A DNA stretch of 64,000 bases from a virus, in the IMG/VR virus record IMGVR_UViG_3300021387_000118, positions 13,168-77,167 of that record; one strand, given 5' to 3'. Within the stretch, counting starts at the first letter, position 1. Every line of letters begins with the position of its first letter. Positions 1 through 50,400 of the stretch are shown here, in pieces. A program made the position numbers and the translations under genes. The notes under the pieces were generated by a model. The model worked only from the letters and a program-made list of their open reading frames with translations, was not told where the DNA came from and ran no database searches.

Positions 1-4
1 TCAT

Positions 5-1939
5 ATGGACATTGATACATTTATTAATGCCAAAGCAACAGATAAAAACAAACTTAACCATTTTAATTTATCGGTTATGGTTGATGACGATTTTATTTCT
101 GCCGTTAGAAAAGACGAGAATATTTGGCTTCATCATCCAGTATATGATGAAAATGGTAATGTGTTAAAAGATCCAGATAAGTGGATATATAGTAAACAAG
201 TATCGGCTAAAAAAATTTGGGATGAAATTATTCAGAAAGCATACGATAACGGCGAGCCTGGAATATTTTTCCTAGATAATTTAAATAGAGATAATAATAT
301 CTGGTATATAGAGAAGATAGTTTGCACTAACCCATGTTCGGAATATCTTGCTGGAACTCTTTATGGTAACAATCCAATTACTGGAGAACCAATTAATCCT
401 AAAGAATATGGTGGAGCTTGTAACCTTGGAAGTCTTTTCTTACATAGGTTTGTTGTAGATGCTTTTACTAACAATGCTCATATTAATTGGGAATTATTAA
501 AAGCAACGATTGAAACAGCAGTGAGAATGCTTGACAATATTATTGACATTAATAAGTTCCCGGATCCGATATATGAAAACTATCAGAAACATTTCAGGAC
601 TATCGGCTTGGGTTTCACGGGTCTAGGCGATTGTTTGGCAATGCTTAATTTAAAATATAACACCAAAGAAGCAAGAGATTATGTAGATAATCTTGTCGAG
701 TTCATTGCATTAAATGCATATAAGGCATCAATAGAACTAGCTAAAGAACGTGGCTCATTTGATTTTCTTGATAGAGAAAAATTTGTGCAGAGTGGATATA
801 TTCTTAAGCATTGTAAAGAAATTGATAGTTCATGGCGTGAAGTAAAAGAAGATATACTTAAATATGGTATTCGTAATGCCAAAATTCTTTCTGTGGCCCC
901 AGTAGGAACACTTAGCATTACATTTGGTAATAATTGTTCTTCTGGTTTGGAACCTATTTTCAGCCTTGAATATGAGCGAAGAGTAAAGATCGGTGGACAG
1001 ACAGAAGAAAATGAAAAGATTGTGCCGATGCGTGATTATGCGTATGGTAAATGGTTAGAGGTTAAAGACCGTCCAACCACGGTAGTTAAGAAAGATGTGT
1101 TCGTTACCGCTTTAGAAATGGATGTTGATGATCATATTGATATGCTCGGCGTTATTGCTAAACATATTGATATGTCTTGCTCTAAAACAATTAATGTTCC
1201 AGAAGATTACTCTTTTGAAAAAACTAAAGAGATTTATATGAAGTGCCATGACCTTGGAATTAAAGGCTGCACCATATTTAGACCAAACCCGCTCAGACAG
1301 GGGGTACTATTAACAAAGAAAGAAGATAAGAAACAATTCACCAATAATTCTATCGAATACACCGAGGATACATTACCTCGTGGCGTAGTTATTAAAGCTG
1401 ATGATAATTGTGTTGGCAAAAAAAGAACGCTTATAACTGGCTGTGGTACACTTCATTGTGAAGCATTCTTTGATCCATACACTGGAGCATTATTGGAAAC
1501 ATATTTTTCAAAAGGTAGTGAGGGTGGTTGTAATTCATTTATGGTCGCTTTGTCAAGAATGATTTCTTTAGCTTCTAGAGCCGGAGTAAGCATTGATTAT
1601 ATTATTGATCAGTTAGAATCAACAATTATTTGTGCATCATATGCTGTCCGTTCTGCTAAAAAACATGATACAAGTAAAGGTAATTGCTGTCCTAGTGCAA
1701 TTGGTAAAGCATTAAAGGATATGTATGAAGAAATGCAGGAAGAAATTAATGGTGACGATGACGATGACGAAGAGGATGAAACAATTCCTACTGCTGTCAA
1801 TAAGACACTAAATGAAGAAGTATCAAATATGACGGTCATAGAAGATAATAATGATAAATGTCCTGAATGTGGAGCCAAAGTTGAACATATTGGTGGATGC
1901 GTACAATGTCCTCAGTGTGCATGGAGTCGTTGCGGTTAA
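5..1939 (+). CDS. nrdJ: Class II (adenosylcobalamin-dependent) ribonucleotide reductase, 5'-truncated by window edge
   Basis: The ORF is open from the window start and has no in-frame TAG. Motifs TNPCSE and CNLGS lie ~11 aa apart, as in monomeric class II RNRs (thiyl-radical Cys and partner Cys). The C-terminus is a CxxC..CxxC zinc ribbon (CPECG...CVQCPQC). TAA stop at 1937-1939. Confidence 0.75.
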
Positions 1940-1950
1940 GGAGGAGTAAA

Positions 1951-2274
1951 ATGAGAATTCTTTATGTTGAGTCAGTGCCAAGTGGATTAAAAATATTCCT
2001 TATAGTATTTCTACTCATAGCATGCATAATAACTGGAGCATACAGTGTCAATACATGGATAGATCGCACAATTAAATCGGCAATTATTTCTACGGCAATA
2101 TTTGTTGTTTCCTTAACTGGAATAGTATTAGTCTCAACACTTATGCCAGAATATCTGCCTAATAAATACATTTATTATGTAGAAGTAACTGATGAAGAGA
2201 ATATAAGTGAATTATTAAAAGATTACAATATCATAGAAACGTATGGATCTATTTATAAAATAGAGGATAAATAA
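1951..2274 (+). CDS. Small membrane protein (two predicted TM helices)
   Basis: ATG at 1951 is preceded by RBS AAGGAGGAG. Hydrophobic segments LKIFLIVFLLIACIITGAY and AIISTAIFVVSLTGIVLV. TAA stop. Confidence 0.55.
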   Translation: MRILYVESVPSGLKIFLIVFLLIACIITGAYSVNTWIDRTIKSAIISTAIFVVSLTGIVLVSTLMPEYLPNKYIYYVEVTDEENISELLKDYNIIETYGSIYKIEDK

Positions 2275-2286
2275 CAGGAGTAAATA

Positions 2287-2658
2287 ATGGAATTTGGAAA
2301 CATGATTTTCGGATATTCACGGGGACAATATAGCGTTCCCCGTGGAATCTGGGAAGAACGATTTTATCAATTTTTAGAAAAAATCAACTCTGACAATTAT
2401 GGATATGCCAATGATCAGCACCATCCAAATGTCAATTCTCGCGGTGGATTTGAAACAACATTATTTACTATTAATCCATATTGGTGGGGAAGTTATGACG
2501 ATGACGAAGTTGGTAAACCCAATTTTATTTATCATCCAACAGGATATCATCTCACCTGGTACAAATATCCATTGAGAGATGCTTATGCTAATCAGAAAAT
2601 GACATATAAAGAATTTGATTTAATGTTGAAAGATTGTGAGGGATGTTATCATGGGTGA
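2287..2658 (+). CDS. Hypothetical protein
   Basis: RBS AACAGGAGTAAATAATGG; 123-aa uninterrupted ORF; no recognisable motif. Confidence 0.5.
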   Translation: MEFGNMIFGYSRGQYSVPRGIWEERFYQFLEKINSDNYGYANDQHHPNVNSRGGFETTLFTINPYWWGSYDDDEVGKPNFIYHPTGYHLTWYKYPLRDAYANQKMTYKEFDLMLKDCEGCYHG

Positions 2659-2889
2659 TGGTGAAGAAGAAGAATATGGCTGCTACGGCGATAATAATGA
2701 AGACAACGAAGACGAAGAGTGGGATGATTAAAATATGGGAGTAATTATAGCCGGAGTTGATTGTGACGATTGTATTTACTCCACCATTGATGATACTGAC
2801 AAGGCTCGTATAAAAGTTTATTGCGATGCTAGGGATAAACAGTATTGGTGGGGTCAAAGTATTCAATGTGAAGATAAGGAGAAAGAAAA

Positions 2890-3090
2890 GTGAACCCAGT
2901 ATTTGTGTTTTTAGTAATTTTAGGGGCTGCATTTTTATGGCTTCTTCTTTCTGGGTTGTTTAGGTTTGTTGGTAGTTTGACTCAGCATACTATTGAGAAA
3001 ACAAAAGATGCATTAGAAAATGATGATATTGGCAAACCAGAATCATTTCTTAATGGTTTTAAAAGTTCATTTAGAAAGGATAATGAGTAA
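2890..3090 (+). CDS. Small membrane protein (GTG start), possible NfeD-like partner of the SPFH protein
   Basis: RBS AAGGAGAAAGAAAAG is followed by GTG. N-terminal TM segment VFVFLVILGAAFLWLLLSGLF. The gene sits immediately upstream of, and is translationally coupled to, the SPFH gene (TAATG overlap at 3087-3092). Confidence 0.45.
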   Translation: MNPVFVFLVILGAAFLWLLLSGLFRFVGSLTQHTIEKTKDALENDDIGKPESFLNGFKSSFRKDNE

Positions 3091-4073
3091 TGAAAAAGGG
3101 TACTATTGGTGGAATTGTACTTGGAGTAGTAATTTTAATTTGTTTAATTATTGGATTTTCATGTGCTAAGAAGGTTCCGGCTGGATATGTTGGAATTATT
3201 TACAGTATGAATGGTGGTATTTCTGATGAAGTTCTTACACAAGGATGGCATATTATATCACCTACAAAGGAAGTAACACTATATTCGATTGGTATTGAGC
3301 AGTCCTATCTTACTGCCGGAAAAGATGGCGATTCAGAGGGTGATGATAGTTTTGAAGTTCCCTCATCAGATGGTAAAGGGTTGAAAGTGGATCTTACATT
3401 TACTTATAGATATGATGCTAATAAAGTTACTAGCTTGTTCACCAGGTTCAAGGGGCAGTCTGGTAAAGGTGTAAGAGATTCATTTATTAAACCCAACATT
3501 ATCTCATGGACAAAAGAAGTTACAGCAAAATACCCTGTAACTGATATTCTTGGTGATGAAAGAGCAAATCTTAATAAAGCAGTATCTGACTATATTAGAG
3601 AAAAATTTGAACCTTATGGAATCATTATTGAAAATGTTAGCTTAATTGATATTGATGCTGATGATGAAACAAGAGCCTCTGTTCAGAGAAAAGTAAATGC
3701 CCAACAAGAATTAGAACTTGCACAGATCGAACAAAAGACAGCCAATGTCCAGGCCCAGAAAGATAAGGAAGTTGCCCTTGTTAAAGCAGAACAGGATAAA
3801 GAGACTGCTTTAATTGCCGCAAACCAGGAGAAAGAAGTAGCTGCGATCAATGCCGAAAAAGCAAAGATTAAAGCAGAAGGTGAAGCTGAAGCAGCAAAGA
3901 TTAAAGCTGAAGCAGAAGCTGAAGCTAATAAGAAAATTGCAGAATCATTAACACCTGAACTTATTGAGAATAATAAGATAAATAAGTGGAATGGTACTGT
4001 TCCGGCGGTATCTGGATCTGGTGCAACAATTGTTGATGTTGGAAATATTACACAACAGAACGATGCGGAATAA
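3090..4073 (+). CDS. SPFH/band-7 (stomatin/prohibitin-like) membrane protein with C-terminal coiled coil
   Basis: N-terminal TM segment (GGIVLGVVILICLIIGF), a body typical of the SPFH domain, then a long E/A/K-rich coiled coil (QQELELAQIEQKTANVQAQKDKEVALVKAEQDKE...AEGEAEAAKIKAEAEAEA). Confidence 0.55.
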   Translation: MKKGTIGGIVLGVVILICLIIGFSCAKKVPAGYVGIIYSMNGGISDEVLTQGWHIISPTKEVTLYSIGIEQSYLTAGKDGDSEGDDSFEVPSSDGKGLKVDLTFTYRYDANKVTSLFTRFKGQSGKGVRDSFIKPNIISWTKEVTAKYPVTDILGDERANLNKAVSDYIREKFEPYGIIIENVSLIDIDADDETRASVQRKVNAQQELELAQIEQKTANVQAQKDKEVALVKAEQDKETALIAANQEKEVAAINAEKAKIKAEGEAEAAKIKAEAEAEANKKIAESLTPELIENNKINKWNGTVPAVSGSGATIVDVGNITQQNDAE

Positions 4074-4420
4074 TGATGGAACCTAAGAAATATAAATTTG
4101 AGAAAGGTGTTCCCGCTGAGACTATGATAAAATCTGGGTTTAGGCTTCGCGGGAGTCACTTCTCTTATAGAACAACTTTATACGAATATGATAATACTAA
4201 ACAACCATATGTTGAAATGAATATCTGGATTGAAAATGGAGTGCACATGACAATTGAAGTATTCTGTAATACTGGAATATATATCCCGTTTTATAATCCA
4301 AATATGAGACATGATAATCTAGTATATGAAAAGATTGTTAGCAATTATAACAACATTATGGATAGGTTTTGTAAGAAGAAAATATTAAAACATGATAGGA
4401 GAAAACATGGTGAGGATTAA
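4073..4420 (+). CDS. Hypothetical protein
   Basis: 115-aa ORF coupled to the upstream stop (TAATGATGG); no motif recognised. Confidence 0.45.
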   Translation: MMEPKKYKFEKGVPAETMIKSGFRLRGSHFSYRTTLYEYDNTKQPYVEMNIWIENGVHMTIEVFCNTGIYIPFYNPNMRHDNLVYEKIVSNYNNIMDRFCKKKILKHDRRKHGED

Positions 4421-4847
4421 TTTTAGAAAAATTGATAAGAATGCAACTGTTCCGAAGAGAGGAAGCAACGAAGCTGCCGGATACGATTTGTATGCAGATG
4501 TGGATGATATTATTGAGGTTATGCCTCATAGCACAGTAAAGATCGGAACTGGATTGGCGATGGAAATTCCCGATGGATATTTTGGAGCGATTTTTGCACG
4601 ATCTGGTCTTGCTACTAAAGAAGGACTTAGACCAAGCAATTGCGTGGGCGTTTGCGATCAAGATTTCCGGGGAGAGGTCGTTGTTGCTCTTCATAACGAT
4701 AGTGATACATCTAGGTTTATTACTCCTAACGAAAGAATTGCTCAGTTGGTTATTATTCCTTACCTTGAAGTAGAATTCAACGAAGTAGAAAAACTTAATA
4801 CAACAAGTAGAGGGACTGGTGGATTTGGTAGTACAGGAAGAGAATAA
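4407..4847 (+). CDS. dut: dUTP diphosphatase (dUTPase)
   Basis: Canonical trimeric dUTPase motifs in order: AGYDL, RSGLA, GVCDQDFRGEVVV, RIAQLVI, and the C-terminal RGTGGFGSTG. Likely start is the ATG at 4407, after RBS TAGGAGAAAAC. Confidence 0.85.
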   Translation: MVRINFRKIDKNATVPKRGSNEAAGYDLYADVDDIIEVMPHSTVKIGTGLAMEIPDGYFGAIFARSGLATKEGLRPSNCVGVCDQDFRGEVVVALHNDSDTSRFITPNERIAQLVIIPYLEVEFNEVEKLNTTSRGTGGFGSTGRE

Positions 4848-5016
4848 CCAATGTCCATACTGTGGTAATGAGTTAACAATTGTGGAACTCAATACTGCAT
4901 GCGGAAGATATTGGTATCAAGAATGTTTCGATTGCGGATGGTGCGGAGAGGAACACTATAGTAAAGATTTTTATTTTGGCGATCCAGATTTGGAGTGGGA
5001 TGATTTATGGGAATGA
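4819..5016 (+). CDS. Small zinc-ribbon protein
   Basis: CPYCG...CFDCGWCG four-Cys motif in a 65-aa ORF overlapping the dut 3' end. Confidence 0.4.
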   Translation: MDLVVQEENNQCPYCGNELTIVELNTACGRYWYQECFDCGWCGEEHYSKDFYFGDPDLEWDDLWE

Positions 5017-5432
5017 CTGTGATATTTATTATTTTATTAATCATATCACTTATGATATTTGCAATATTATTGATACATTTTGGAATTACCTTATTCGATT
5101 ATCATCAAGGAATCAACGATGAACAAACAATGACATTCAAACAATTTGAAAATCTATATTATACTAATCCAGACAAATGGATGTTTAAAGATTATTCCAT
5201 ACCATATGTTAGTTACTATTATGAGGGTAATAGTTACACCGACATATATATGTCGCACTATCTGGATTCAATAAAATTAAAAAAGATGTTTGCCAATATC
5301 AAGGATAAACTTAAAGAAAAGGAAAAAATTGAAGAGCGTAAAGATCTATTAAAATACTGGCAGAAAGATATTGATGATTATAACAATAAAATATTAAAAG
5401 AAATGAAAGGATTATTGAAAAATGAAAATTAG
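5007..5432 (+). CDS. Membrane protein, hypothetical
   Basis: N-terminal TM helix (VIFIILLIISLMIFAILLIHFGI) followed by a K/E-rich tail. Confidence 0.5.
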   Translation: MGMTVIFIILLIISLMIFAILLIHFGITLFDYHQGINDEQTMTFKQFENLYYTNPDKWMFKDYSIPYVSYYYEGNSYTDIYMSHYLDSIKLKKMFANIKDKLKEKEKIEERKDLLKYWQKDIDDYNNKILKEMKGLLKNEN

Positions 5433-5652
5433 TCATATTAGAGACATTGATAAATTTTTTAAAGTAATTGATTCATGTACCGGAAAGGTGGAATTGATCG
5501 GCGAAGATCTCCGGCTGAACCTTAAGAGCAATCTTGCCAAATACTTTGCCCTTGCAAATATCTTTAATGGTGGTGAAGAAATTCCCGAATTAGAGATTGT
5601 GGCATACAACCAGGAAGATATTAATAGGCTGATCCAGTATATGATTGGATAA
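5422..5652 (+). CDS. Hypothetical protein upstream of integrase (excisionase/accessory candidate)
   Basis: 76-aa ORF directly upstream of int; no confident motif. Confidence 0.35.
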   Translation: MKISHIRDIDKFFKVIDSCTGKVELIGEDLRLNLKSNLAKYFALANIFNGGEEIPELEIVAYNQEDINRLIQYMIG

Positions 5653-5663
5653 TTTATTAAACA

Positions 5664-5700
5664 AAGTCGGCGGATCAATTAGGTTCGCCGATATTTATAA
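5664..5700 (+). terminator. Putative rho-independent terminator
   Basis: GTCGGCG...CGCCGAT hairpin followed by TATTTAT. Confidence 0.35.
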
Positions 5701-5766
5701 GGATGTGATTTTATAGATAAGAAAGAACTTGAAAACATCCTTTCTGCTACTACCGAATATAAAGAA

Positions 5767-7023
5767 ATGTTGCAGTTATTTTTAAATAATGATATGATCA
5801 CATCGGAAACTGCGCAGGATTTATACATGGCAATTAGAAGAAAGGAGATACTAAAAAAATATAAACCGAGTTTAGGAAGCGATGGATTATGGTATGTCAA
5901 CATCAGATTTGCTCGTGGACCATCTGGCAGAAAAACCATTAGGAAAAAAGATCTGGATGAATTAGAAAATGAAATTGTCAAATTCGTTCTGAATAATGAA
6001 AACGCCAGACAACCGTTTGAGAAGAAGACGGTGGAATTTTTTCCGTATAGTTCTGCATTTACCAACTGGCTGAAAGCGCAGCATTATAAAAATCACAATA
6101 CCGAACAGCGCAATATGCGGGAGTATAAACGCTTCTTTGAGCGTCTTAAAGTCGGTCGGGAAATAGCTGACAAGGATATTAGAGATATAAAACCTTCAGA
6201 TATTGAGGGCTTTATGATTGAAGCTATTACTAAATACAATCTCACATCAAGGAAATCACGGGAAGATTATCATATGTTCTTTGAGTGTGTATATGAACAG
6301 GCTATCATCGACAGATTTATTCAGACGACAGATAACCCATGTGTTCTAATCCAGAAGAACAGGTTTTTGCAGTACGCCAGAAAAGAGATTTTTAATGACT
6401 CTGAACGTACAATCTCAGATAATGTTTCTGCGATTATTCAAGATGCTGTAGATAACGACCATTTTAAGAAAGAAGATTATATGCCGCCTTATGCCTGTGA
6501 ACTTTCAGCACTGACAGGATTAAGGTGTGGCGAACTTGCTGGCTTATTGTGGAAAGATGTTGACGAAAGTTTAGGACACATCAAAATTTGCCGAAGTCAG
6601 AAATATGATGAGAAAAATAAATCATATTATCTGGACGAAACAAAAAATGGGGTAATCAGGTATATCCCAATCACAGATGAAGTGCAACGTGTGTTGAATA
6701 GGATAAAAGCAATTCAAAAAACATATGGTCGTACTGGAGATTATGTTTTTTCAACATCAAAAGGCGCAGCCAATAACCGCCAGATCAGCGATTATATGTT
6801 TAATAAGAAGAAGCAGTATAAAATAAAACAGCCAATCAGCATTCACGCACAGCGCAGGACAATCAACAGCCGCATGGAAAATGCCGGAGTTTCGGCGGCA
6901 GTCCGTGCATCATTGCTTGGTCATACGGAGAGAACAAATATCAGTAACTATTCTTATGATGTTTCGTCATTAGACTACAAACGTGATGCTCTCTCGAAGG
7001 CTAGTATTGCACACAAAACCTGA
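5767..7023 (+). CDS. int: Tyrosine recombinase / phage integrase
   Basis: Box I LTGLRCGELAGLLWKDVD (catalytic Arg), HAQRRT (H-x-x-R), LLGH and the catalytic Tyr in SNYSY. N-terminal SAM-like arm-binding region. No in-frame TAG. An alternative start is the ATG at 5827 (AGGA spacer). TGA stop. Confidence 0.85.
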   Translation: MLQLFLNNDMITSETAQDLYMAIRRKEILKKYKPSLGSDGLWYVNIRFARGPSGRKTIRKKDLDELENEIVKFVLNNENARQPFEKKTVEFFPYSSAFTNWLKAQHYKNHNTEQRNMREYKRFFERLKVGREIADKDIRDIKPSDIEGFMIEAITKYNLTSRKSREDYHMFFECVYEQAIIDRFIQTTDNPCVLIQKNRFLQYARKEIFNDSERTISDNVSAIIQDAVDNDHFKKEDYMPPYACELSALTGLRCGELAGLLWKDVDESLGHIKICRSQKYDEKNKSYYLDETKNGVIRYIPITDEVQRVLNRIKAIQKTYGRTGDYVFSTSKGAANNRQISDYMFNKKKQYKIKQPISIHAQRRTINSRMENAGVSAAVRASLLGHTERTNISNYSYDVSSLDYKRDALSKASIAHKT

Positions 7024-7200
7024 TACGTAAACCTGATACGTAAGGTATGACTAACCGCAAGAAATAGCTTAAATACAATGAAAATTGATCTTCAGGGCGG
7101 GGCGCAATTCCCCTAATCGTATTTAAGAAAAAACCTTGATTATTCAACGAAAATCAGACCTCGATTTTGCGATTTTACCCTGATACGCCTGATACGTGAA
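7019..7200. other. Candidate attP: CTGATACG direct repeats (two tandem pairs) flanking a GC-rich core
   Basis: CCTGATACGTAA occurs twice in tandem at 7019-7042 and CCTGATACGCCTGATACGTG at 7178-7196. They flank an unusually GC-rich segment (GGGCGGGGCGCAATTCCCC) immediately downstream of int. Confidence 0.4.
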
Positions 7201-7325
7201 AATGACCACATAGAAAGGAGAAGCGCAGTTTCCTTCCTATTGTTTCCATATTTATTTATTCACATAAATAAGTTGACTTGTGTGATTAAATAAGTATGGA
7301 AAACGCATAAAAAATCGTAAAAAAT

Positions 7326-7351
7326 GGGGTTATCCAATTAAGGACAACCCC
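7326..7351. terminator. Bidirectional rho-independent terminator (end of the minus-strand late/lysis operon)
   Basis: GGGGTTATCC...GGACAACCCC hairpin with TTTAT on the plus side and ATTTTTTACGATTTTTT on the minus side. Lies just downstream of the last minus-strand gene. Confidence 0.5.
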
Positions 7352-7391
7352 TTTATAGTCAACTCAGTTTGCCGAGTAACTGAGCTATGAA

Positions 7392-9977: not shown

Positions 9978-10172
9978 GTAATTCCTCCTTTAAATAAGAC
10001 GTTCGATTTTTGTTAGAAATATTATTTATCCACATAATATAATTCTATACTTTATCATATTCTTTTACTACTTTACGTAATGGACCGACTAATAATCCAT
10101 CTTTATATAATATATTCTTTATTTCATTAGTAACTGGATCTTTCGTATACATAATAACATTATCGCCCATAA
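9978..10172 (-). CDS. Small hypothetical protein (one in-frame TAG), first gene of the lysis transcription unit
   Basis: RBS AAGGAGAAC before the ATG at about 10172. 64 codons with a TGA overlapping the amidase ATG (CAATGAGT). Confidence 0.35.
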
Positions 10173-10224
10173 TTGTTCTCCTTATAAAAATCTCAAAAAT
10201 GATAAAAATCTCATTTTTAGAATT

Positions 10225-10244
10225 TGCAAAAAAGCAATTTTGCT
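10225..10244. promoter_or_regulatory. Overlapping palindromes GCAAAAaagcaaTTTTGC / AAGCAAttTTGCTT in the promoter region of the lysis cassette
   Basis: Perfect 6-bp inverted repeats in the 235-bp AT-rich gap between the regulator stop (10409) and the small-gene/amidase unit. Operator-like. Confidence 0.3.
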
Positions 10245-10408
10245 TTTCTTCTGAAATCCGTAATTACAAAAACACCCATAAATACTAGGGTTTTAAAAAA
10301 CAAAATTGTTTCAATAAAAGCATTTTTGCTCTGATGTAAAACGTTAAAAAACCCATATATATTAATAGTTTCTGACATTAATACCCGTCGGAAAACCTCT
10401 GTATAGTC

Positions 10409-10939
10409 TTAGGAAGTTCCCCATTCTGATCTTTCAAATAATCCAACAGCAGTAGCATTAACATTTTTACCTCTCAGATATATGCTAGGGTTAACAACAA
10501 TTTGTTCTCCAACGTATCCATCTTTCTTAGAACCTTCTCTAGAATAATTAATAACACCTTTTTTGTTTAAATTCATAATATTTCTTTTTAATGTACCCTC
10601 TGGAATTTTCATTAAATCTGCTAAATCTTTAATGCCTAATTTTTTACCGTTTTTATGACCACCAGTGCGAAGAATACAATCATCATAACAAACAAAATCC
10701 GCCAGAGACATAGCAGTGGAAAATTCTCCCTAATTATTCAGATATATTCTTAATTCATTCACTCCGTCAAATAATTTGACGAAATTCTTATTTCCGTTAA
10801 AATCTCTAATGATTAAATCAGACTCATTTTGATGAACTACGTAATCACCAAATTTCATTTCATCAACAATTTCACCTGTTGTTTTACTGACAACAGCATA
10901 TAAAACTTCATCTTCTTGTTCTTTATTATTTTCCTTCAT
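10409..10939 (-). CDS. Putative HTH transcriptional regulator (one in-frame TAG at 10730)
   Basis: RBS AAGGAGGAG before the ATG at 10939. Fragments 10730-10939 and 10409-10711 share a frame joined by TAG. The C-terminal LADLMKIPEGTLKRNIMNLNKKGVI resembles a winged-helix HTH. Real TAA stop. Confidence 0.5.
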
Positions 10940-11202
10940 ATCCTTTTCTCCTCCTTTAAATTAATAAACTCTCAATCATCTGCGCATAATGATTGAAAAA
11001 ACGCCGCGAGGCATGGAAGCCCCGCAGCAATATATATATAAAATATGATTTTTTCGCCACCGAAGTGGCGTGTCAGGAGAAAGCCGCCTTCTTCATAGCG
11101 GCACTTAAAATGCCAACCCTCTGTTGGAGAAGGACAGAGGGTGTATATATCAAACGGTAATTCCGTTTTACCGTTAGATACCAAAATTAATTAATAATAA
11201 AA
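10940..11202. other. Structured, GC-enriched intergenic region with at least four stable hairpins (candidate ncRNA, attenuator or terminator cluster)
   Basis: Hairpins ACCCTCTGT-n9-ACAGAGGGT, CGCCAC-cgaa-GTGGCG, AACGGTAA-n7-TTACCGTT and GCGGGGC-n6-GCCTCGC. On the minus strand the last is followed by TTTTTT about 40 nt upstream of the regulator RBS. The track ORF 10972-11184 here is probably spurious. Confidence 0.35.
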
Positions 11203-11463
11203 TTATTCCTTATAGGGTTCAATATACCCCATTGCCCTGGAAGAATCCGACAAACCATTAGTAGTCGGATCATTAACAACTCCAAGGATCACAAGTACGC
11301 CAAATACAGCATTGACAACAGCCAGAAGCTTATTGCCAAGATCGCCCAGATCAAGCTGGAAACCAAACACTGCGGCGATAACCTAAATTAACAGAAGAAC
11401 TGCCGGAATAAGAGACAACCAAAAGTTTCTGTTTAAAAATCTAATTTTCCAATTAATATTCAT
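11203..11463 (-). CDS. Holin-like small membrane protein (two TM helices, one in-frame TAG)
   Basis: RBS AAGGAGGAAG before the ATG at 11463. Protein is about 86 aa: MNINWKIRFLNRNFWLSLIPAVLLLI(TAG)VIAAVFGF..LLAVVNAVFGVLVILGVV, with a charged C-terminus. TAA at 11203. Confidence 0.5.
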
Positions 11464-11482
11464 AATTCTTCCTCCTTAAAAT

Positions 11483-11986
11483 TTACTCATCAATAATTTC
11501 CCACGTTTTGCTTGCGGGGACAGCAACTTCATCAATCCAACTATCTCCTCCGGCATTCTTATAGCTAGTAACCATATTGTTAAAAGCCCACGCTTCCATA
11601 GCGGTCCATTGGCCTTTCTTGCGATAGAAGTTATATGCTTGTGTTACCCTATCCCCCAATTTTGATCTGTCTGATTCGTCCATCTTTTCACGCATCTCTT
11701 TTACCTAATCTGATAAATCTCGCATAGATCCTTTCATTTCATCCATGCATTCAAATATCTTATTAAATTGCTAATCAGTCTTTTCAGCATGTCGCTTTAG
11801 CTCTGCTATGTCTTTTTGCTATTTTTCTTCCCTCGTTTTTCGCTTTGTTTGTATCCCTAGCTTAGAACAAAGATAGTCAAATTTCTGGATAACCCAAACT
11901 GCAATAATAATCAATGCTGCCACAAAAATAAGTCCATTCTTCCAATCCAAACTAAGGATACTAATAACATTTCCTATGTTGTCCAT
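11483..11986 (-). CDS. Membrane protein with N-terminal TM helix and coiled coil (lysis-associated?), three in-frame TAGs
   Basis: RBS GAAAGGAGG with an 8-nt spacer before the ATG at 11986 (MDNIGNV..). TM segment LIFVAALIIIAVWVI. Fragments 11819-12013 and 11483-11695 are joined by TAGs. Real TAA at 11483. Confidence 0.45.
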
Positions 11987-12090
11987 TGGTTCAACCTCCT
12001 TTCCCAAAATCATTAGTAGTCACAATCCTTTTAGTCCTTTGGGAGGTTAGTCCCCTTATATATAAACAGCTTATGAGGCTGAGAATATTG

Positions 12091-16154: not shown

Positions 16155-16204
16155 AATCACACCTCCATTCTTATTCTATACTTCATAAAATCTCCTTATT
16201 AAAT

Positions 16205-16237
16205 AGAAGACCACGGAGTCGAACCGCAGTCTTCTTG
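16205..16237 (-). terminator. Intra-operon hairpin (attenuator/terminator) between fiber genes
   Basis: On the minus strand, GAAGACTGCGG-ttcgact-CCGTGGTCTTC is followed by TATTT. A GGTTCGACTCC T-loop-like string occurs within it but there is no tRNA cloverleaf. Confidence 0.4.
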
Positions 16238-19200
16238 TTAATTAAAAATAAAATCTAACGAATTAGTTGTTGAATTAAACTCCATTCTGCATCCACTCGT
16301 ATTAGTGGCATTTCCACCAACGGTTACTGAGCCATTAAACACAGCATTACCAATCGTTGATATTGAAGCAACCTGAGTCGGGGTTCTTCCGCCCTTCCAT
16401 ACCCAACCACGAGTTGCATCATTAGTCGTTGAAGTTGTCTTCATTGTAAAGTACGTTGCCCAGTCGCCTTGAACATAACCATGAGCGCCTTGATTCGATA
16501 CGTTGCGCATCAAAATACCATAATAGTCTGGATCAGTACCAAACAGAGCAATACCGCCAGCAGTAGCAGATTGGCCACTATTAGCCGCAAGGTATCCACT
16601 TGCCGCAAAACTTGTACCAGTAACAGCTCCAGTAAAAGCACCGCCAGATTTTTTCATGTAGGTAGTATTGATTGCATTCCCATCAGAGTCCTGTGTGGCT
16701 TTGGTTGCTGCTCCAACAGTAACACTGGAAGCTCTCGACCACTTCATCTGCCCACCAGATGCGAATGCATCAATACCAACAAGATATGTAAATCCGTTTG
16801 ATTCTGTCAATGAAGTTGCCGTCCATTTAAGTGGGCCTGTCATAGTTCCACCAGACAATGGAAGAGCATATGAGTCATAATTACTGGTGGTTAACATGTT
16901 GGATAAATCATATGTCTATCCACTTGTGCCTGTGAGCTTAAACCACCAAGTGGGGTCATCATCTGTTGCACCTCCATTCGATGATCCGGCAAAAGTAACA
17001 ATAGGTGTATTATACGCAACATCTAACATTCCCTTTGTGTCAGACGCTCCGAATAAAATTGCTGATGAATAACTACCACTATTCCAGGTCGCTTTTGATG
17101 ATGAAGGTCTTGCTACAGTTATCTTTGTACCACTTGTTGTTCCTCCAAGAGTTTTCCACCCGCCAGTTGCAAGAGAGACACCACTCACCGCCGCGAGAGC
17201 AATAGGTTTTCCACTCACATTTGCCCAAGCTACAGCATTTGCAGTAGTCGCAGTAGTAGCAGTAGTAGCATTGCCAGAGATAGAAATATCCCAAGTGCCT
17301 GATGCTCCATCGCCAGTTTTTGTAACAGTATAAGATGTATAGTTATGAGAATCTAATACTGTAAGCCAATTTCCCCAAGTATTCGCAGTTCCATATTCAC
17401 CTCTAATCTATAGGTATGGAGTAGATGAACTATGACAATAAGCTATCTATCCATCCCAAGCACCATTATCCCATGGCAGATGTAAGATATGAGCGTCACT
17501 TCCAGGTTTACCCTCGGTCATAGAACCTGTTGCTAAGAAGTATCTTACCTTGTTATCCGCAAAATTTTTATTTGCAGTTGTCGGTCTTGATGCTGTGCCA
17601 GATTGTGGTTCCCAAGATGAATTTAAACCACATAATGCAGCACTATCGACTGCGGTACAAGCAGTTATAATACCATGATTATCAACATAAACAGGCTAAG
17701 TTGCACTTCCTACATCTGCAAATGTTTTATTATCACTACCAGATGGTAATAGAGCAAATTTATACCATTTAGTCCATGTAGCTCCAGTATCTTGTGATGA
17801 ACGATAAAATAAATCGTTATTACCACTATCGAGAAATTGTCTAATAGTTTTAGGGCGATATCCAATATATGTTATTAATTTTAATCCAGCACCAGATACT
17901 GGAACCGTTCCAGATAATGTATTAGTTATAGTGTTACTAGCGCTATAATAAGTTCCGGCCTCCTTATAGTTAGTATCTATATTGCTTGATTCTGCCATGT
18001 CTGTTCCACAAGCTTTGATATATGCACCACCTAAATTAGTAATAGCATCAATAGCAGTTGTTGCACTAGTACCACCTTGAGCTATAGTAACTGTATTTTT
18101 TGATGTTAGAATTGCATATTCTTTATTAGATGTTAAACCTGCTGAAACAGCTGGTAAACTATATGTTTCATACTTTCCAGTTGTAGCAGTATCTGCTGTG
18201 CTATTAGGACTAAATTCTCTCCACTAAAACCTTCCTGAAGTAATATTAGTAGCATTTCCTGCATCATACCAAGATTCAGCTACCTATGTACCAGCATTAT
18301 TTTTATAATATATATCGCCGATCCATCGAACAGCTGTACCAGCATCGCCCCTACCAAGTAAATCTATATAACCAAATTGTTTACGACCTCTAAAAGCTTG
18401 TGTACCAGTAGTAACTATTCCACTAGCAGTTGGACTAGCACTTGGTATAACTGCGGTTTTAGTTTCACCTAAAATTGTCACACTTAAAGTAGGTCCAGCA
18501 GTTGTTCCATCAGAATATGACAAGTCTGTGAAAATATCTTCTGCTGATGTTTGACCAGTACCTCCTTGGGCTATTGTGACAGGATTTTTTGTTGACAACA
18601 TTGTTGACCAAGCACCCCAAGAAGTATTAGTTCCTCCACTATCATTTTGTCTGAATAAGAGAGTATCACCTCTAGCGACAATTTGGAATTTATCACCAGC
18701 ACTTCCAACCTATAAACCAACCCAATCAGAACTTCCAAATGGTTCACCAACACCCGCAAATGAGAATGTGCCAGCAGTATTATTTATTGTAGTACTATCT
18801 AAAGTTTTATTTGTTAATGTTTCTGCGGTAGTAGCACTTCCCGCAGTATCAGCATGTCCGGCATTCATCTTAGTCCATGCTGACCATGTACTGTCTGCAC
18901 TTTTCCACCAACGTTTATAAAAATATAAAGTCGATGAATCATGAACAACTAACTAAAACGGTGTGCCGATTGTTCTAGCATTTAACCAAACCATATGCCC
19001 AGTAGTATAAGCATCTGTCACGTTCCCCATAGTAAATGCTATACTATCAGTTTCAGATAAAGCCTATGCTGTCCATGTTGTCATATCATTAGTGTTGATA
19101 TAACGCATTCCAGATCCAGCCGCTGTTCCAGACATGTCGAGGCTAAATTTGTTAGATGATAATGTAAGACCAACTCCTGCACTATAAGTGGTATTAGTTG

Positions 19201-47409: not shown

Positions 47410-47475
47410 TTTCATCTCCTTTCTTTTCCTATAAGAAATAGAAGAGTGCGCTTTGACACGCACCCTTCTTAATTA

Positions 47476-50400
47476 TCATGCTCTTTTGTTATATGCTCTT
47501 TTGAAATTCTATGTGTTATAATCAAATTGTTTTTGCATAAAGTTACGATCTTTTAATAAGCTGTTTGCTATAGCATCAATCTTATTCAACATGTCACCAT
47601 CTACATTACCATCAATTCTGATAAGAGATTCATAATAGTAGTTTCCACCACTATTTACACTGCTTACATTGCTAACATTTGGAACAGAAGTATTTGCTTT
47701 TGTCGGATCTATTTGACTCCATTTCCAAATATTATCAGATTGCAGTTTAGGAAGAACTTGCGAACCCTATGGTAACTGCCTCAAAATGGCCCCATTTCCG
47801 AGAATAATCTCGTCATTATGAGTCAGCGCAAGTTCATCTTCATTGATTCTCTTTGAGCCTTTACGATAAGATTTTAACTTTGACGCACTGGTAACTCCCA
47901 ATTTCTTCAAATGTTTCTTAAGCTCAGATAACACGGCATTGCTCTGTTGAGATGTCCATGTCTTATCTACATGAACACCAAGAGCATTGGCTAATTTAGT
48001 AGGAACACCTTTAGAAACAGATCTTCCAAAAGTAGATGCTATATAATCGCCAATTGCGCCACCGCCATTATTCTTACCTTTTGGTAACCCTTTAATAATA
48101 TCAACAACCCTATCTGAAGTATTTAATAACCAATTCGCATGTGAATCGATATACTACTAGGTCGCCGGATCTGATGATACTGTTCCTGTTGGAGTTGTAT
48201 TGGTAGTATTATTTATATCCGTATTGATTGATCCAATTCCCCCATCTGCGGCTCCAACAGTACTTCCAGCCTAAGATTGTGCCTTTGTTGCTTCAATCAT
48301 AGCGGCAGAATATTCTTTAGCTTTTTTAATGAGATAATCAAGTTTTTCGCCAGTTACAGTTGCAAATGTATCAATAGCAGTAGTATCAATGTTTTGAGCA
48401 ACAGCACTAGTGAATTTTTTCCAGTTATTAGTTGGAACAAGAGTTTCTTCATTGATCGCTCCAAAGAATGCATTTAAATTAGGATCTTTTAAGCAAGCGT
48501 CTGATGTTTCACTAACAACAGTTCCGGTAGCTTTAATCCTCTGGTCAACAGTGTCATATGCCTCTTGATAATGACCAACTAATTGATTCAACATCATTTG
48601 AACAATACGGTCTTGTTCATCCGTGTTTGCCGCAATATGACGGAGAGTCTGATCGAGTGTTTCTTGAATATCCTATGAAAGTTGATCATATCCTTGGTTA
48701 AGCATATCATAGCGATGGTTGTATCTGGTATCTTCTAATGACTCATCTGCATCAGATAATTGCTGTCTTAATCTTGCGGCCTCAGCTTGTGCTTGTTTAT
48801 TAGTGGAACCTTCCAAGGAATTTAATTGCGCAAGAACTTTATTACGTTCTCTATTTTGATTTGTCACTTGCTTCTGATAATCATAATATGATTTTTGTTG
48901 ACTTAAAGCCTCTTTTCTTAATTCTATATTTTTTTGAATAGCAGCATTTTCATTCTATATCTATACCTTGTACATTTCGATCAATGCGTTCTTGTCTTCC
49001 TTCAGGTCTACAGCCATGCTTTGGATTTGCTTTCTATATTCATCGACTTGTTTTTCGCCTTCTTCAACACTTATGTTGTGGTTTTCCATTTCTTCATTTA
49101 CTTTATCTATAGCCGATCTTAAATTACCCATTTCATTAATGGTTGTTTTATAGTGATTGCCCAATAATAATATATTTGCTAAACCTTTATTGGTAATGCC
49201 CCAACCTTCGCCATCATCATCAAAGAATTCTTCTTGACTAAATAAACCGCGAAGATGTTCGAAATCGGATCTAGTAGTCTCAAGTTTATCCTGAAGACTG
49301 TCAAACTCTTTCCAGCGGAGAGAGCGGATGGATTTCTTAAGATTCTCATTCTAAATCACCATTTGTCTGAGCGCGGCTTCATCAGCTTCAATAGCAGACT
49401 TCAATTGATCATACTGTTCAGAACCTTCTTCGTACCCCATTGTATCTAACAATCTCTTATTATAATCCAATCTTTGTTCTGTGTATATGATATTTGAATT
49501 ATTATTTTTGATCTGACTATTATAATCATTCTCAGTTATGTAAGAAGATGGATCATTAAGTAATGTACCTCTGGCTTCTTTAAGAGCAACCCTATCTTGA
49601 TACATTTGTGCTTCTGCTTTGATGCGGTTCATCATATAATCAATAGGCTTTAAGTTGAGATCATACATCGCTCTTGTTAAATCTCTTGCATTCTTTTCGG
49701 ACTGTTTTAATGCAGTTGCCATACCTTGATAAGCTGTTTGTGCCTTACGATATTCGTTACTATCTACACCGAAAATTCCGGCAGCATTTCGCATTTCATT
49801 AAGATATGCATTCATTTGTGCTCTATAAATTTCCTGCGATTTGCCCTCAAGAGCAATCTGGTTAGCATACTCCTGCATATTACCATAAGAATTATCTCTT
49901 AATCCTTTAGAAGCATTAAGATCAATAATGGCCTATGAGGTCTATGCAACGGCTTGAGCGTATTCGTTTAAGGATTCGTATTGCTCCGTGATGTTATCAA
50001 GTTTCATTTGCTGAAGTTCTTTTTGTTTTGCAATACACTCCTCGATAGCATCCTCACACTCCAAAATTTTTTCATACCACGTTTGATATTCATTAATATA
50101 CGCTGTTGCTCTGTTTTCTGTCTTACTAGAATCTTTTCCGCGTGATGTTTTCTTGGTTTTAAGATACTTAGAAAAGTCTTCTACTGTTAATCCGCCTTCT
50201 TTAATTAGTTTATTAAGACGTTTTGCTTCTTTAGATGTCACTAGTCCAGAAGATTTCGCTTTCTTAACAACCGTTTTTAAATGAGAGGTATATCCACCCT
50301 TCTTTGAAATGGCACTTTCATTGGTCTGTCTTAAACTGATATTGGTAGCCATTGCGTCATCTATATACTTATTCTTTGCAGCGTAACCAGTCTCGCCTTT

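What the first reader, a model, noticed from the sequence alone, without database searches (positions are those of the whole stretch)
10940..11202. Hairpin-dense, GC-enriched 260-bp gap between holin and HTH regulator (candidate ncRNA or attenuator)
At least four strong hairpins occur where neighbouring intergenic gaps are 10-30 nt (ACCCTCTGT/ACAGAGGGT; CGCCAC/GTGGCG; AACGGTAA/TTACCGTT; GCGGGGC/GCCTCGC + T6 on the minus strand). The standard-code ORF called here (10972-11184) has no RBS and a poor-looking sequence. The region could be a processed sRNA, a terminator/antiterminator switch controlling read-through from structural genes into the regulator and lysis genes, or even a divergent suppressor-tRNA-like element. 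I could not fold a cloverleaf by eye.
Basis: seen in the sequence. Interest (0 to 1): 0.5.

Follow-up and report, generated by a model that had tools for sequence, protein, structure and literature searches.

The report
Hairpin-rich terminator spacer after phage holin
The 263-base gap after the holin gene of this TAG-recoded phage is a real, non-coding string of six RNA stem-loops, of which one is a strong transcription terminator, one is a conserved leader hairpin of the next gene and four are specific to this lineage and unexplained; it is not a tRNA or any catalogued RNA family.

Summary
Window 10940-11202 folds far better than shuffles (minus strand -89.7 kcal/mol, z -7.1), is GC-enriched (0.43-0.48 vs 0.36) and holds six stem-loops on the gene-sense (minus) strand.

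- **Not a tRNA or known RNA family:** ARAGORN and Rfam find nothing.
- **Not coding:** the 70-aa ORF has no homologue outside this lineage, no ribosome-binding site, and its C-terminus is frameshifted in sister contigs.
- **H5 (11028..11003 plus U6):** the strongest minus-strand hairpin in the window and a canonical intrinsic terminator. Its G·U pairs, and two more G·U substitutions in sister contigs, fit only minus-strand RNA.
- **H6 (10999..10969):** the only part shared with the next lineage (78% identical downstream protein). All 11 pairs are kept, with compensatory changes.
- **H1-H4:** found only in three near-identical contigs. Other relatives have gaps of about 10 nt or 130 nt.

Best reading: a terminator and insulator boundary between the late/holin block and a self-contained winged-helix regulator cassette. 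An independent ~190-nt sRNA is not excluded.

By-product: distant homologues of the downstream gene carry a ~60-nt three-stem RNA that pairs with the ribosome-binding site. It has strong covariation, 42 copies across 39 viral contigs, sits mostly before homing-endonuclease-like genes, and has no Rfam match.

The parts
11203..11460 (-). Holin gene, with one in-frame TAG read as Gln. It is the last gene before the gap.
   Evidence: Pfam PF04531 Phage_holin_1, E 1.8e-26, residues 3-83 of 86, matched across the TAG. DNA-level similarity to annotated holins of Firmicute phages.
11147..11181 (-). H1: A/U-rich 13-bp stem-loop with one U·U mismatch and a 7-nt loop.
   Evidence: Energy -13.1 kcal/mol on the minus strand and -12.1 on the plus strand. 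Identical in L001 and L006. Absent from all other relatives.
11116..11142 (-). H2: perfect 9-bp stem with a CU-rich 9-nt loop, CCUUCUCCA.
   Evidence: The terminal pair is broken in L001 by T->C at 11116.
11083..11102 (-). H3: 6-bp GC stem (GCCGCU/GGCGGC, one G·U on the minus strand) with an 8-nt loop.
   Evidence: -9.6 kcal/mol minus, -7.0 plus. It lies in the longest stretch that is invariant among the three copies.
11075..11082 (-). UUUCUCCU: single-stranded CU-rich 8-mer, an exact complement of AGGAGAAA in the ribosome-binding region of the next gene.
   Evidence: The MFE structures of the window and of L006 pair it with 10945-10952. A duplex test against shuffles is not significant (122 of 1000).
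11055..11070 (-). H4: 6-bp GC stem with a UUCG tetraloop, followed by A6.
   Evidence: -9.7 kcal/mol.
11029..11054 (-). A/U-only tract with a (UA)n microsatellite. Its length differs by 2 nt from the sister contigs.
10996..11028 (-). H5 plus U6: intrinsic (Rho-independent) terminator. 10-11 bp, 8 G-C pairs, 2 G·U pairs, 6-nt loop, then UUUUUU.
   Evidence: Top terminator-like hit. It is the most stable 44-nt minus-strand hairpin in the 64-kb window at -21.4 kcal/mol. Energy is -21.2 on the minus strand against -12.7 on the plus strand. Stem substitutions in L001 (C->U at 11019) and L006 (C->U at 11006) both give G·U pairs.
10969..10999 (-). H6: 11-12-bp leader hairpin with the conserved loop UGCGCAG. 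It overlaps the terminator U-tract and sits 30 nt before the start codon.
   Evidence: This is the only segment shared with the 78%-identity lineage and with L033. 11 of 11 pairs are kept in 4 distinct sequences. 6 pairs vary, 2 of them by double changes. Slid controls give 39-59% paired.
10937..10955 (-). Ribosome-binding site AAGGAGGAGAAAAGG and the ATG of the downstream gene.
   Evidence: Read from the sequence.
10409..10939 (-). 176-aa winged-helix-like protein gene with an in-frame TAG at 10730-10732. Standard code reads it as two ORFs of 69 and 100 aa.
   Evidence: It is one continuous protein in homologues. The TAG aligns with CAA (Gln) in L018. Family hits are weak: HTH_24 E 0.027, Rrf2 E 0.069, PHROG 'transcriptional regulator' E 0.004.

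Best explanation
The gap is non-coding RNA punctuation on the gene-sense (minus) strand. It marks the boundary between the long TAG-recoded late block, which ends with the holin gene, and a self-contained winged-helix regulator cassette that is probably horizontally mobile and has been inserted into the lysis module.

Proposed mechanism, step by step:
1. Transcripts that come through the holin gene end at H5 plus U6, a canonical intrinsic terminator. The signature is shown; activity is inferred.
2. The four upstream stem-loops H1-H4 then form a structured 3' UTR. They would protect the holin/late mRNA 3' end or act as back-up pause or termination sites. This is inferred. They are lineage-specific additions and may be largely dispensable.
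3. H6, directly after the U-tract, is the conserved 5'-leader hairpin of the downstream gene. It occupies the position where distant relatives carry a ~60-nt three-stem RNA that pairs with the ribosome-binding site. That motif is also found in front of homing-endonuclease-like genes.
4. The net effect is to insulate the regulator gene from late read-through. Any read-through RNA could additionally pair UUUCUCCU (11082..11075) with the ribosome-binding site. That pairing is possible but not statistically supported.
For: Structure beyond chance: z -7.06 on the minus strand.

Strand:
- H3, H5 and H6 contain G·U pairs and are 2.6-8.5 kcal/mol more stable on the minus strand.
- Two of the three stem substitutions among the three copies create G·U pairs in H5.

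Terminator:
- H5 is the best terminator-like site and has a U6 tail.
- It is the strongest minus-strand hairpin of the window.
- It lies just after the last gene of a gene block that has almost no other gaps.

Non-coding:
- The ORF has no family and no homologue outside the lineage.
- A 2-nt indel shifts its frame in the sister contigs.

H6 conservation: it is kept with compensatory changes across lineages whose gaps are otherwise unrelated.

Cassette nature of the downstream gene:
- Its homologues sit after ClpP, after HU plus tRNA, after GOLLD RNA, or after a holin.
- It is flanked here by two ~240-260-nt non-coding spacers.
- In seven homologue groups it carries a leader motif that elsewhere precedes homing-endonuclease-like genes.

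H1-H5 are dispensable: relatives have ~10-nt (L004) or 130-nt gaps, and L001/L006 have gained a further hairpin between H6 and the ribosome-binding site.
Against: - There are no expression data. Termination at H5 is inferred from sequence alone.
- A role for H1-H4 is unproven. With only three ~98% identical copies, covariation cannot be tested.
- Other terminator-like hairpins between late genes of this phage are single, so four extra stem-loops are unusual for a plain 3' UTR.
- The gap is slightly better conserved than its flanks: ~98% against 92-97%. This hints at more constraint than a passive spacer would have.
- No promoter for the downstream gene can be named with confidence. Promoter-like matches are barely above chance, 10 found against 5.4 +/- 2.7 expected.
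Confidence: 0.5

Rival explanations
1. Stand-alone small RNA gene. A ~190-nt transcript would start near 11185 from the sigma-70-like TTGAAC-17-TATTAT site that overlaps the holin stop. It would fold into H1-H4 and end at terminator H5. Its CU-rich single strands (the H2 loop CCUUCUCCA and UUUCUCCU) would bind ribosome-binding sites of phage or host mRNAs.
For: - The architecture of promoter-like site, several stem-loops and an intrinsic terminator is typical of bacterial sRNAs.
- The structure is minus-strand specific.
- The 65-nt H3-H4 core is invariant among the three copies, and the gap is somewhat better conserved than its flanks.
- The CU-rich motifs are complementary to the ribosome-binding site of the next gene.
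Against: - The promoter match is only 9 of 12, in AT-rich DNA where such matches are near chance.
- No copy exists outside one lineage.
- There is no complementarity longer than 13 nt to anything else in the window.
- Pairing with the ribosome-binding site is not better than shuffles, 122 of 1000.
- No Rfam family matches.
Confidence: 0.2
2. H1-H4 have no function of their own. They would be hitch-hiking or scar sequence left by repeated cassette exchange at this recombination-prone junction. Only H5 (terminator) and H6 (leader) would be under selection.
For: - Gap length and content differ completely between relatives: ~10, 130, 263 and 297 nt, or tRNAs and GOLLD RNA.
- The holin type is swapped in L004.
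- A 34-nt hairpin insertion and a microsatellite indel separate near-identical copies.
- H1-H4 have no detectable relatives.
Against: - Random or decaying sequence is not expected to give four perfect GC-rich stems and z -7.
- There is no source sequence in the genomes or viral contigs searched.
- The gap is slightly more conserved than the flanking genes.
Confidence: 0.17
3. Transcription attenuator or riboregulator. The leader of the regulator gene would begin upstream of H5, and a factor would decide between termination at H5 and read-through. The UUUCUCCU : AGGAGAAA pairing would act as a second, translational lock.
For: - A terminator lies 60 nt before a start codon, and an exact 8-nt complement to the ribosome-binding site lies upstream of it.
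- Sequestration of the ribosome-binding site is a recurrent theme in leaders of this gene family.
Against: - No competing antiterminator helix was found. The MFE and centroid structures show only independent hairpins.
- The complementarity is not significant.
- No riboswitch or leader family matches.
- The 78%-identity lineage lacks H5 and its U-tract.
Confidence: 0.08
4. A DNA-level element: replication origin, packaging site or attachment site.
For: An A/T-only tract lies between GC-rich palindromes, next to a DNA-binding protein gene.
Against: - There are no iterons or direct repeats.
- GC skew does not turn here.
- Hairpin asymmetry with G·U pairs argues for RNA.
- The likely attP, with repeated CGTATCAGG sites next to the integrase gene, lies at about 7019-7196.
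Confidence: 0.03
5. A divergent suppressor-tRNA-like gene, or a small protein from ORF 10972-11184.
For: - The phage recodes TAG, and no tRNA is found in the window.
- One small hairpin (11113..11097) has anticodon-arm geometry. Its loop is UUUUAAG here and UUUUGAG in the sister contigs.
- The ORF is open in all three copies.
Against: - ARAGORN finds nothing at default or with its thresholds lowered (-ps). Only junk appears at a much lower cut-off (-ps80) and in mitochondrial mode.
- No Rfam tRNA hit at E<=10.
- There is no acceptor stem or T arm, and H3 competes for the stem of the anticodon-like hairpin.
- The ORF has no ribosome-binding site, no family and no homologue outside the lineage. 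Its C-terminal 19 residues are replaced through a frameshift in L001/L006.
Confidence: 0.02

Closest known systems
Rho-independent (intrinsic) transcription terminators of bacteria and phages
   Same: H5 has a GC-rich 10-11-bp stem, a 6-nt loop and an immediately following U6. It lies in gene sense directly after the last gene of an operon-like block.
   Different: It is preceded by four further stable stem-loops without U-tails. Other terminator-like hairpins in this phage are single. Activity was not tested.
RNA hairpins that sequester the ribosome-binding site of T4-type homing-endonuclease genes (I-TevI, I-TevII, I-TevIII, segB, mobE), and the seg43(25) hairpin that lies just upstream of the ribosome-binding site (review PMC2988022)
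   Same: A stable hairpin lies in the leader of an inserted, cassette-like gene. In the 78%-identity lineage, H6 extends to 13 bp and covers a ribosome-binding-site-like AAGGAGA. Distant homologues use a three-stem RNA whose P3 loop pairs with the ribosome-binding site. In T4 the logic is that read-through transcripts are translationally silent and only transcripts from a proximal late promoter are translated.
   Different: In the window itself H6 stops 14 nt before the ribosome-binding site, as in the seg43(25) case. So sequestration by H6 is not shown here. No late promoter can be identified. The downstream protein is a winged-helix protein, not a recognisable endonuclease.
GOLLD RNA and tRNA islands of phages (Rfam RF02032; PMC12286853)
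   Same: The same genomic slot, immediately upstream of homologues of the downstream gene, holds tRNA-Pro, tRNA-Met, a GOLLD RNA (159 bits, E 6e-43) and tRNA-like elements in L021-L024.
   Different: The window gap has no GOLLD or tRNA match at any threshold. It is only 263 nt long and consists of simple hairpins.
Clusters of REP/BIME-type palindromes, and intercistronic stem-loops that stabilise the 3' end or are cut by RNase III, such as the phage T7 RNase III sites (from general knowledge, not tested here)
   Same: Several GC-rich stem-loops lie in tandem in a 3' UTR between co-oriented genes.
   Different: H1-H5 are not copies of one another, and no other copy exists in the window or in the genomes searched. 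So it is not a repeated-element family.
Theta (minimal HDV-like) ribozymes of TAG-recoded gut phages (PMC10879173)
   Same: The context is similar: a non-coding region of a TAG-to-Gln recoded phage, in gene sense.
   Different: No tRNA is adjacent. No HDV-like nested double pseudoknot was found by a home-made descriptor that could not be validated. No Rfam ribozyme hit.

Membership tests
Intrinsic terminator (H5) | GC-rich stem of at least 5 bp with a 3-8-nt loop | tested here: met
   11 pairs, 8 of them G-C, loop 6. Energy -21.2 kcal/mol.
Intrinsic terminator (H5) | U-tract immediately 3' of the stem, on the transcribed strand, downstream of a gene | tested here: met
   UUUUUU at 11001..10996 on the minus strand, about 200 nt after the holin stop codon.
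Intrinsic terminator (H5) | Transcripts actually end there | not testable with these tools
   No transcriptome data are available.
tRNA / suppressor tRNA | Cloverleaf with acceptor, D, anticodon and T arms | tested here: not met
   ARAGORN finds 0 genes in the window and 0 with its thresholds lowered (-ps). Only implausible hits appear at a much lower cut-off (-ps80) and in mitochondrial mode. The Rfam tRNA model gives no hit at E<=10.
Any Rfam 15 family (riboswitch, leader, sRNA, ribozyme, CRISPR repeat) | Covariance-model score at or near the gathering threshold | tested here: not met
   No hit at gathering threshold in the 64-kb window. The best hit inside the gap itself is 19.3 bits against a 46-bit threshold (ncS025, generic two-hairpin shape).
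GOLLD RNA | Match to RF02032 | tested here: not met
   None in the window. Positive control: L021 and L023 score 158-159 bits.
Three-stem leader that pairs with the ribosome-binding site, found in relatives (model R1 built here) | P1-GACAG-P2-UUUY-P3-AUUA-P1' architecture | tested here: not met
   The best window hit is 6.1 bits (E 1.7) and uses only the H6 stem as P1. True members score 33-76 bits.
Independent sRNA gene | Own promoter | tested here: inconclusive
   TTGAAC-17-TATTAT at 11222..11194 matches 9 of 12 positions. Such matches number 10 against 5.4 +/- 2.7 expected in this AT-rich region.
Independent sRNA gene | Conservation of sequence and structure in related genomes | tested here: not met
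   Found only in three ~98% identical copies. Absent from other relatives and from the collections searched.
Transcription attenuator / riboswitch | Mutually exclusive terminator and antiterminator helices | tested here: inconclusive
   The MFE and centroid structures show only independent hairpins. No extended complement to the H5 arms was seen by eye. No dedicated alternative-structure computation was run.
Protein-coding gene (ORF 10972-11184) | Homologues, a ribosome-binding site, and a reading frame kept among relatives | tested here: not met
   No Pfam hit. The only hit among 5.8 billion proteins is the same locus in L001. There is no Shine-Dalgarno sequence before the TTG start. A 2-nt indel changes the C-terminal frame in L001/L006.
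HDV-like / theta ribozyme | Nested double pseudoknot with a catalytic C in J4/2 | tested here: inconclusive
   A home-made descriptor found 0 candidates on either strand, but it could not be validated on a known ribozyme. No Rfam ribozyme hit.

The most novel reading that the evidence does not exclude
H1-H5 would be a new, lineage-restricted phage small RNA of about 190 nt. It would be made either from its own promoter or as the stable 3'-end product of the late/holin transcript. Through its exposed CU-rich segments it would dock on the purine-rich ribosome-binding region of the adjacent TAG-containing regulator gene, or of other lysis-module genes. It would thereby take over the insulating role that the three-stem, ribosome-binding-site-pairing leader plays in related phages, and would help set lysis timing in a recoded phage.
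Probability: 0.12. Interest if true: 0.5.

Novelty: new member of a known kind. Interest (0 to 1): 0.3.

Why it matters
The gap itself matters little. It is a terminator and stem-loop boundary of a familiar kind, and its extra hairpins are confined to one lineage.

It is useful for annotation:
- It shows where the 50-kb late block of a TAG-recoded, integrase-carrying ~140-kb phage probably ends.
- It shows that the 'HTH regulator' is one 176-aa TAG-containing protein.
- It shows that this gene behaves as a movable cassette inside the lysis module.

The more valuable result is what the comparison turned up in relatives. This is a ~60-nt three-stem RNA with very strong covariation whose loop pairs with the ribosome-binding site. 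It is present in at least 39 viral contigs, mostly in front of homing-endonuclease-like and other selfish genes, and has no Rfam match. If it holds up, it generalises the T4 principle of 'silence the mobile gene on read-through transcripts' to a conserved, searchable RNA family.

Tried and rejected
- **tRNA or tmRNA:** ARAGORN at default, with thresholds lowered (-ps, -ps80), in intron mode and in mitochondrial mode. Rejected.
- **Rfam:** whole window at gathering threshold, and 10700-11500 at E<=10. Nothing meaningful.
- **Protein:** Pfam on both ORFs in the gap, and a 5.8-billion-protein search with the 70-aa ORF. Only the same locus was found.
- **Similar DNA:** GenBank phages, with the 1.1-kb locus and with the gap alone at E<=10. 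Only the holin gene matched.
- **Exact-pattern scans:** H2, H5 and the H3-H4 core in IMG/VR, and the H3-H4 core in GTDB genomes. Only the sister contig was found.
- **Sensitive blastn:** the gap against all 75 fetched loci and against the rest of the window. Only H6 is shared.
- **sRNA target search:** no complement longer than 13 nt elsewhere in the window.
- **Pairing with the ribosome-binding site:** not significant, 122 of 1000 shuffles.
- **'GC hairpin plus TATAATAAT' as a mobile promoter cassette:** the 9-mer is not enriched in the window, 4 found against 4.0 expected.
- **HDV-like descriptor:** no hit, but the descriptor was not validated.
- **Prophage copies of the downstream gene in 185,579 genomes:** none.
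- **GenBank phages encoding the downstream protein:** none.
- **Model R1 of the relatives' leader on the window:** no match.

Full report
**Context.** The window comes from a phage that reads TAG as a sense codon.
- Recoding TAG raises the DNA covered by ORFs of at least 100 codons from 57 kb to 88 kb. It joins fragments into giant minus-strand ORFs with up to 56 in-frame TAGs. The plus-strand genes at 1-7023 contain none.
- Around the finding all genes run on the minus strand:
  - a 176-aa membrane protein (12013..11483);
  - the holin (11460..11203; Pfam Phage_holin_1, E 1.8e-26);
  - the gap;
  - a 176-aa protein (10939..10409);
  - a ~238-nt AT-rich spacer;
  - a 65-aa protein;
  - a ~600-aa endolysin. 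Its counterpart in the sister contig L006 is called as 678 aa and hits Pfam Amidase_2, Glucosaminidase and SPOR.
- The '69-aa' and '100-aa HTH' ORFs seen under the standard code are one gene.
  - Homologues are continuous across the junction.
  - The TAG at 10730-10732 aligns with CAA (Gln) in L018 and is kept as TAG in L017.

- On the minus strand the 263 nt fold into six consecutive, independent stem-loops:
  - H1 11181..11147
  - H2 11142..11116
  - H3 11102..11083
  - H4 11070..11055
  - H5 11028..11003
  - H6 10999..10969
- Folding energy is -89.7 kcal/mol against -59.3 +/- 4.3 for shuffles (z -7.06). The plus strand folds less well (z -4.92).
- GC reaches 0.48 against 0.36 for the window.
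- The terminator-like scan finds 6 sites in 1.5 kb where 0.7 are expected.

**Which strand.**
- H3, H5 and H6 contain G·U pairs that would be A·C mismatches on the other strand. H5 scores -21.2 kcal/mol on the minus strand and -12.7 on the plus strand.
- Among the three available copies (window, L001, L006) three substitutions fall in stems. Two of them, both in H5, convert G-C to G·U.
- The functional molecule, if there is one, is therefore RNA in gene sense.

**What it is not.**
- Not a tRNA or tmRNA. No Rfam tRNA hit at E<=10.
- Not any Rfam family.
- Not a recognisable HDV-like ribozyme, although that test was crude.
- Not a protein gene.
  - ORF 10972-11184 has no Shine-Dalgarno sequence and no Pfam hit.
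  - Its only match among 5.8 billion proteins is the same locus in L001.
  - That copy has a different C-terminus because a (TA) indel shifts the frame.
- Not a repeated element. No other copy exists in the window, in 75 related or unrelated loci, in GenBank phages, in IMG/VR or in GTDB genomes.

**What the parts are.**
- *H5* is the most stable 44-nt minus-strand hairpin in the whole window and is followed directly by U6. It is a textbook intrinsic terminator, placed after the last gene of a block that otherwise has almost no intergenic space.
- *H6* is the only segment with relatives.
  - In the lineage whose downstream protein is 78% identical (L007-L017), and in L033, the gap is 130 nt and otherwise unrelated.
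  - The H6 stem is kept there with two double (compensatory) changes and four single changes. All 11 pairs stay intact in 4 distinct sequences. The loop UGCGCAG is invariant. Slid controls give 39-59% paired.
  - In that lineage the stem extends to 13 bp and covers a ribosome-binding-site-like AAGGAGA.
- *H1-H4 and H5* exist only in the window lineage, as three copies that are ~98% identical over the gap against 92-97% in the flanks.
  - Another relative (L004, 68% identical protein) has a different holin and only ~10 nt before the gene.
  - L001 and L006 have gained a further 34-nt hairpin between H6 and the ribosome-binding site.
  - This junction therefore gains and loses stem-loop modules quickly.

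**Synteny.**
- Homologues of the downstream gene sit in different neighbourhoods: after ClpP, after HU, after a holin. They are usually preceded by structured non-coding DNA.
  - In L021-L024 the 1.3 kb upstream holds tRNA-Pro, tRNA-Met, a GOLLD RNA (159 bits, E 6e-43) and tRNA-like elements.
  - In L025/L026 it holds tRNA-Met and then 757 nt that fold with z -4.4 and have no Rfam match.
  - In L030 it holds a tRNA-Met.
- GOLLD is known from phages near tRNA islands, and its function is unknown (PMC12286853).
- The window gap has no similarity to any of these sequences.

**A conserved leader in relatives.**
- Seven homologue groups carry a ~60-nt three-stem junction that ends 35-40 nt before the start codon. 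Its layout is P1(7 bp)-GACAG-P2-UUUY-P3-AUUA-P1'.
- In 8 sequences 95.8% of cells are paired, and 14 of 15 pairs show double changes. No shuffle out of 500 matches this. Slid controls give 28-43% paired.
- The P3 loop is complementary to the ribosome-binding site and its variable flank in every instance. The mean exact complement is 7.0 nt against 5.2 for shuffled loops, always 6-27 nt after P1'.
- A covariance model (R1) and a pattern scan then found 42 full-length copies in 39 IMG/VR contigs.
  - Of these, 31 are distinct. They are 95.2% paired against 61% for shuffles, with 172 cells carrying double changes.
  - None lies under an Rfam hit.
  - By eye, the genes that follow look mostly like LAGLIDADG-, GIY-YIG- or HNH-type endonucleases, a TnpB-like protein, and DnaD- or DUF1376-like winged-helix proteins.
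- This parallels the T4 paradigm. There, hairpins silence homing-endonuclease genes on read-through transcripts, and a proximal late promoter yields translatable RNA (PMC2988022).
- The window lacks the motif. The best R1 score is 6 bits, from H6 taken as P1. H6 does sit at the same place, followed by a similar UUUAUUA linker.

**Most likely mechanism.** This is part shown and part inferred.
- Late transcripts that pass the holin gene terminate at H5. The signature is shown; activity is inferred.
- H1-H4 form a structured 3' UTR. A protective or back-up role is inferred, and they may be largely dispensable.
- The regulator cassette behind the terminator is thereby insulated. It is expressed with its own leader, which contains H6.
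- UUUCUCCU (11082..11075) is an exact complement of the ribosome-binding-site segment AGGAGAAA and pairs with it in the MFE folds of both gap versions. The complementarity is not better than chance. I treat it as a possibility only.

**Rivals.**
- An independent ~190-nt sRNA (0.2). The architecture fits, the promoter evidence is weak, and there is no conservation.
- Functionless recombination scar for H1-H4 (0.17).
- Attenuator (0.08). No alternative helices were found.
- DNA-level element (0.03). The likely attP lies next to the integrase gene at about 7019-7196.
- tRNA-like element or protein (0.02).

**Verdict.** The finding is real but ordinary in kind. It is a lineage-specific cluster of stem-loops around an intrinsic terminator and a conserved leader hairpin, at the edge of a movable regulator cassette in the lysis module of a TAG-recoded phage. 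Interest is about 0.3. The three-stem motif uncovered in relatives deserves its own follow-up.

Noticed in passing
L002:3884-3942, L028:2432-2490, L018:282-345, L019:1203-1265, L021:2402-2461, L034:154-215, L035:51-110, L036:530-587, and 42 matches in L037-L075 (not in the window): A ~60-nt three-stem RNA, laid out as P1-GACAG-P2(GGUAGCUCC)-UUUY-P3-AUUA-P1'. Its P3 loop pairs with the ribosome-binding site of the gene that starts 25-40 nt downstream. Covariation is very strong: 95% of cells paired, 14 of 15 pairs with compensatory changes, 0 of 500 shuffles as good. No Rfam 15 match and no literature hit for its sequence. The downstream genes are mostly homing-endonuclease-like (LAGLIDADG, GIY-YIG, HNH), TnpB-like, or winged-helix replication/regulator proteins. 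One copy lies ~30 nt 3' of a group I intron core (L059). It looks like a mobile-gene translational silencer.
   Followed up: partly
window 10409-10939 (minus), TAG at 10730-10732: The 'HTH regulator' is one 176-aa protein with an in-frame TAG exactly between its N-terminal domain and its winged-helix domain. Under the standard code it splits into a 69-aa ORF and a 100-aa ORF that has its own ATG. The TAG is conserved in L017 and is CAA (Gln) in L018. The code switch could therefore toggle between a truncated and a full-length product.
   Followed up: partly
L021:1059-2393 (also L022-L024): Immediately upstream of a 50%-identical homologue of the regulator gene lie tRNA-Pro, tRNA-Met, a GOLLD RNA (RF02032, 1677-2152, 159 bits) and two odd tRNA-like elements. 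One (~2215-2300) has a 7-bp acceptor stem, a T arm and an 18-nt anticodon loop; this was read by eye only. The other is an 85-nt ARAGORN call at 2309-2393 whose anticodon is gcc in L021, L023 and L024 and gtt in L022.
   Followed up: partly
L025:1736-2492 (also L026): A 757-nt gene-free stretch lies between a tRNA-Met and a homologue of the regulator gene. It folds with z -4.4 and has no Rfam match at E<=10. It is a candidate unknown large structured RNA, in the position where GOLLD sits in L021.
   Followed up: partly
window 5701-7023 (+) and about 7019-7196: A tyrosine integrase gene (PHROG 1, E 8e-39) lies at the end of the plus-strand block. Next to it are four copies of CGTATCAGG in two tandem pairs, which are candidate integrase arm sites (attP). 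A bidirectional terminator at 7309-7368 lies beyond them, towards the minus-strand genes. The phage is probably temperate, yet no prophage copy of the regulator gene was found in 185,579 genomes.
   Followed up: partly
window about 10171-10408: A second long (~238 nt), AT-rich non-coding spacer follows the regulator gene. It has only a weak hairpin (AAAGCAAAATTGCTTTTTTGC). The regulator gene is therefore bracketed by two long spacers, like an inserted cassette. The 53-aa ORF 10217-10378 in this spacer has no ribosome-binding site.
   Followed up: no
L001:3944-3990, L006 (same position), L007:2410-2450: A GC-rich hairpin immediately followed by TATAATAAT occurs twice independently at this junction. 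One is the 34-nt insertion between H6 and the ribosome-binding site in L001/L006. The other lies in the 130-nt gap of the 78%-identity lineage. It may be a small promoter-carrying module. The 9-mer is not enriched in the window.
   Followed up: partly
window 11097-11113 (minus): A small hairpin has anticodon-arm geometry: a 5-bp stem and a 7-nt loop with U33 and a purine at position 37. Its loop reads UUUUAAG here (anticodon UUA) and UUUUGAG (UUG, Gln) in L001/L006. There is no cloverleaf around it, and H3 competes for its stem. It is probably a coincidence, but curious in a phage that reads TAG as Gln.
   Followed up: partly
window 16201-16244 and 47437-47480 (minus): Two strong hairpins at junctions between late genes share their flanks (AATTAA..AAGAAG-stem-CTTCTATT). 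This may be a phage-specific terminator or processing signal.
   Followed up: no
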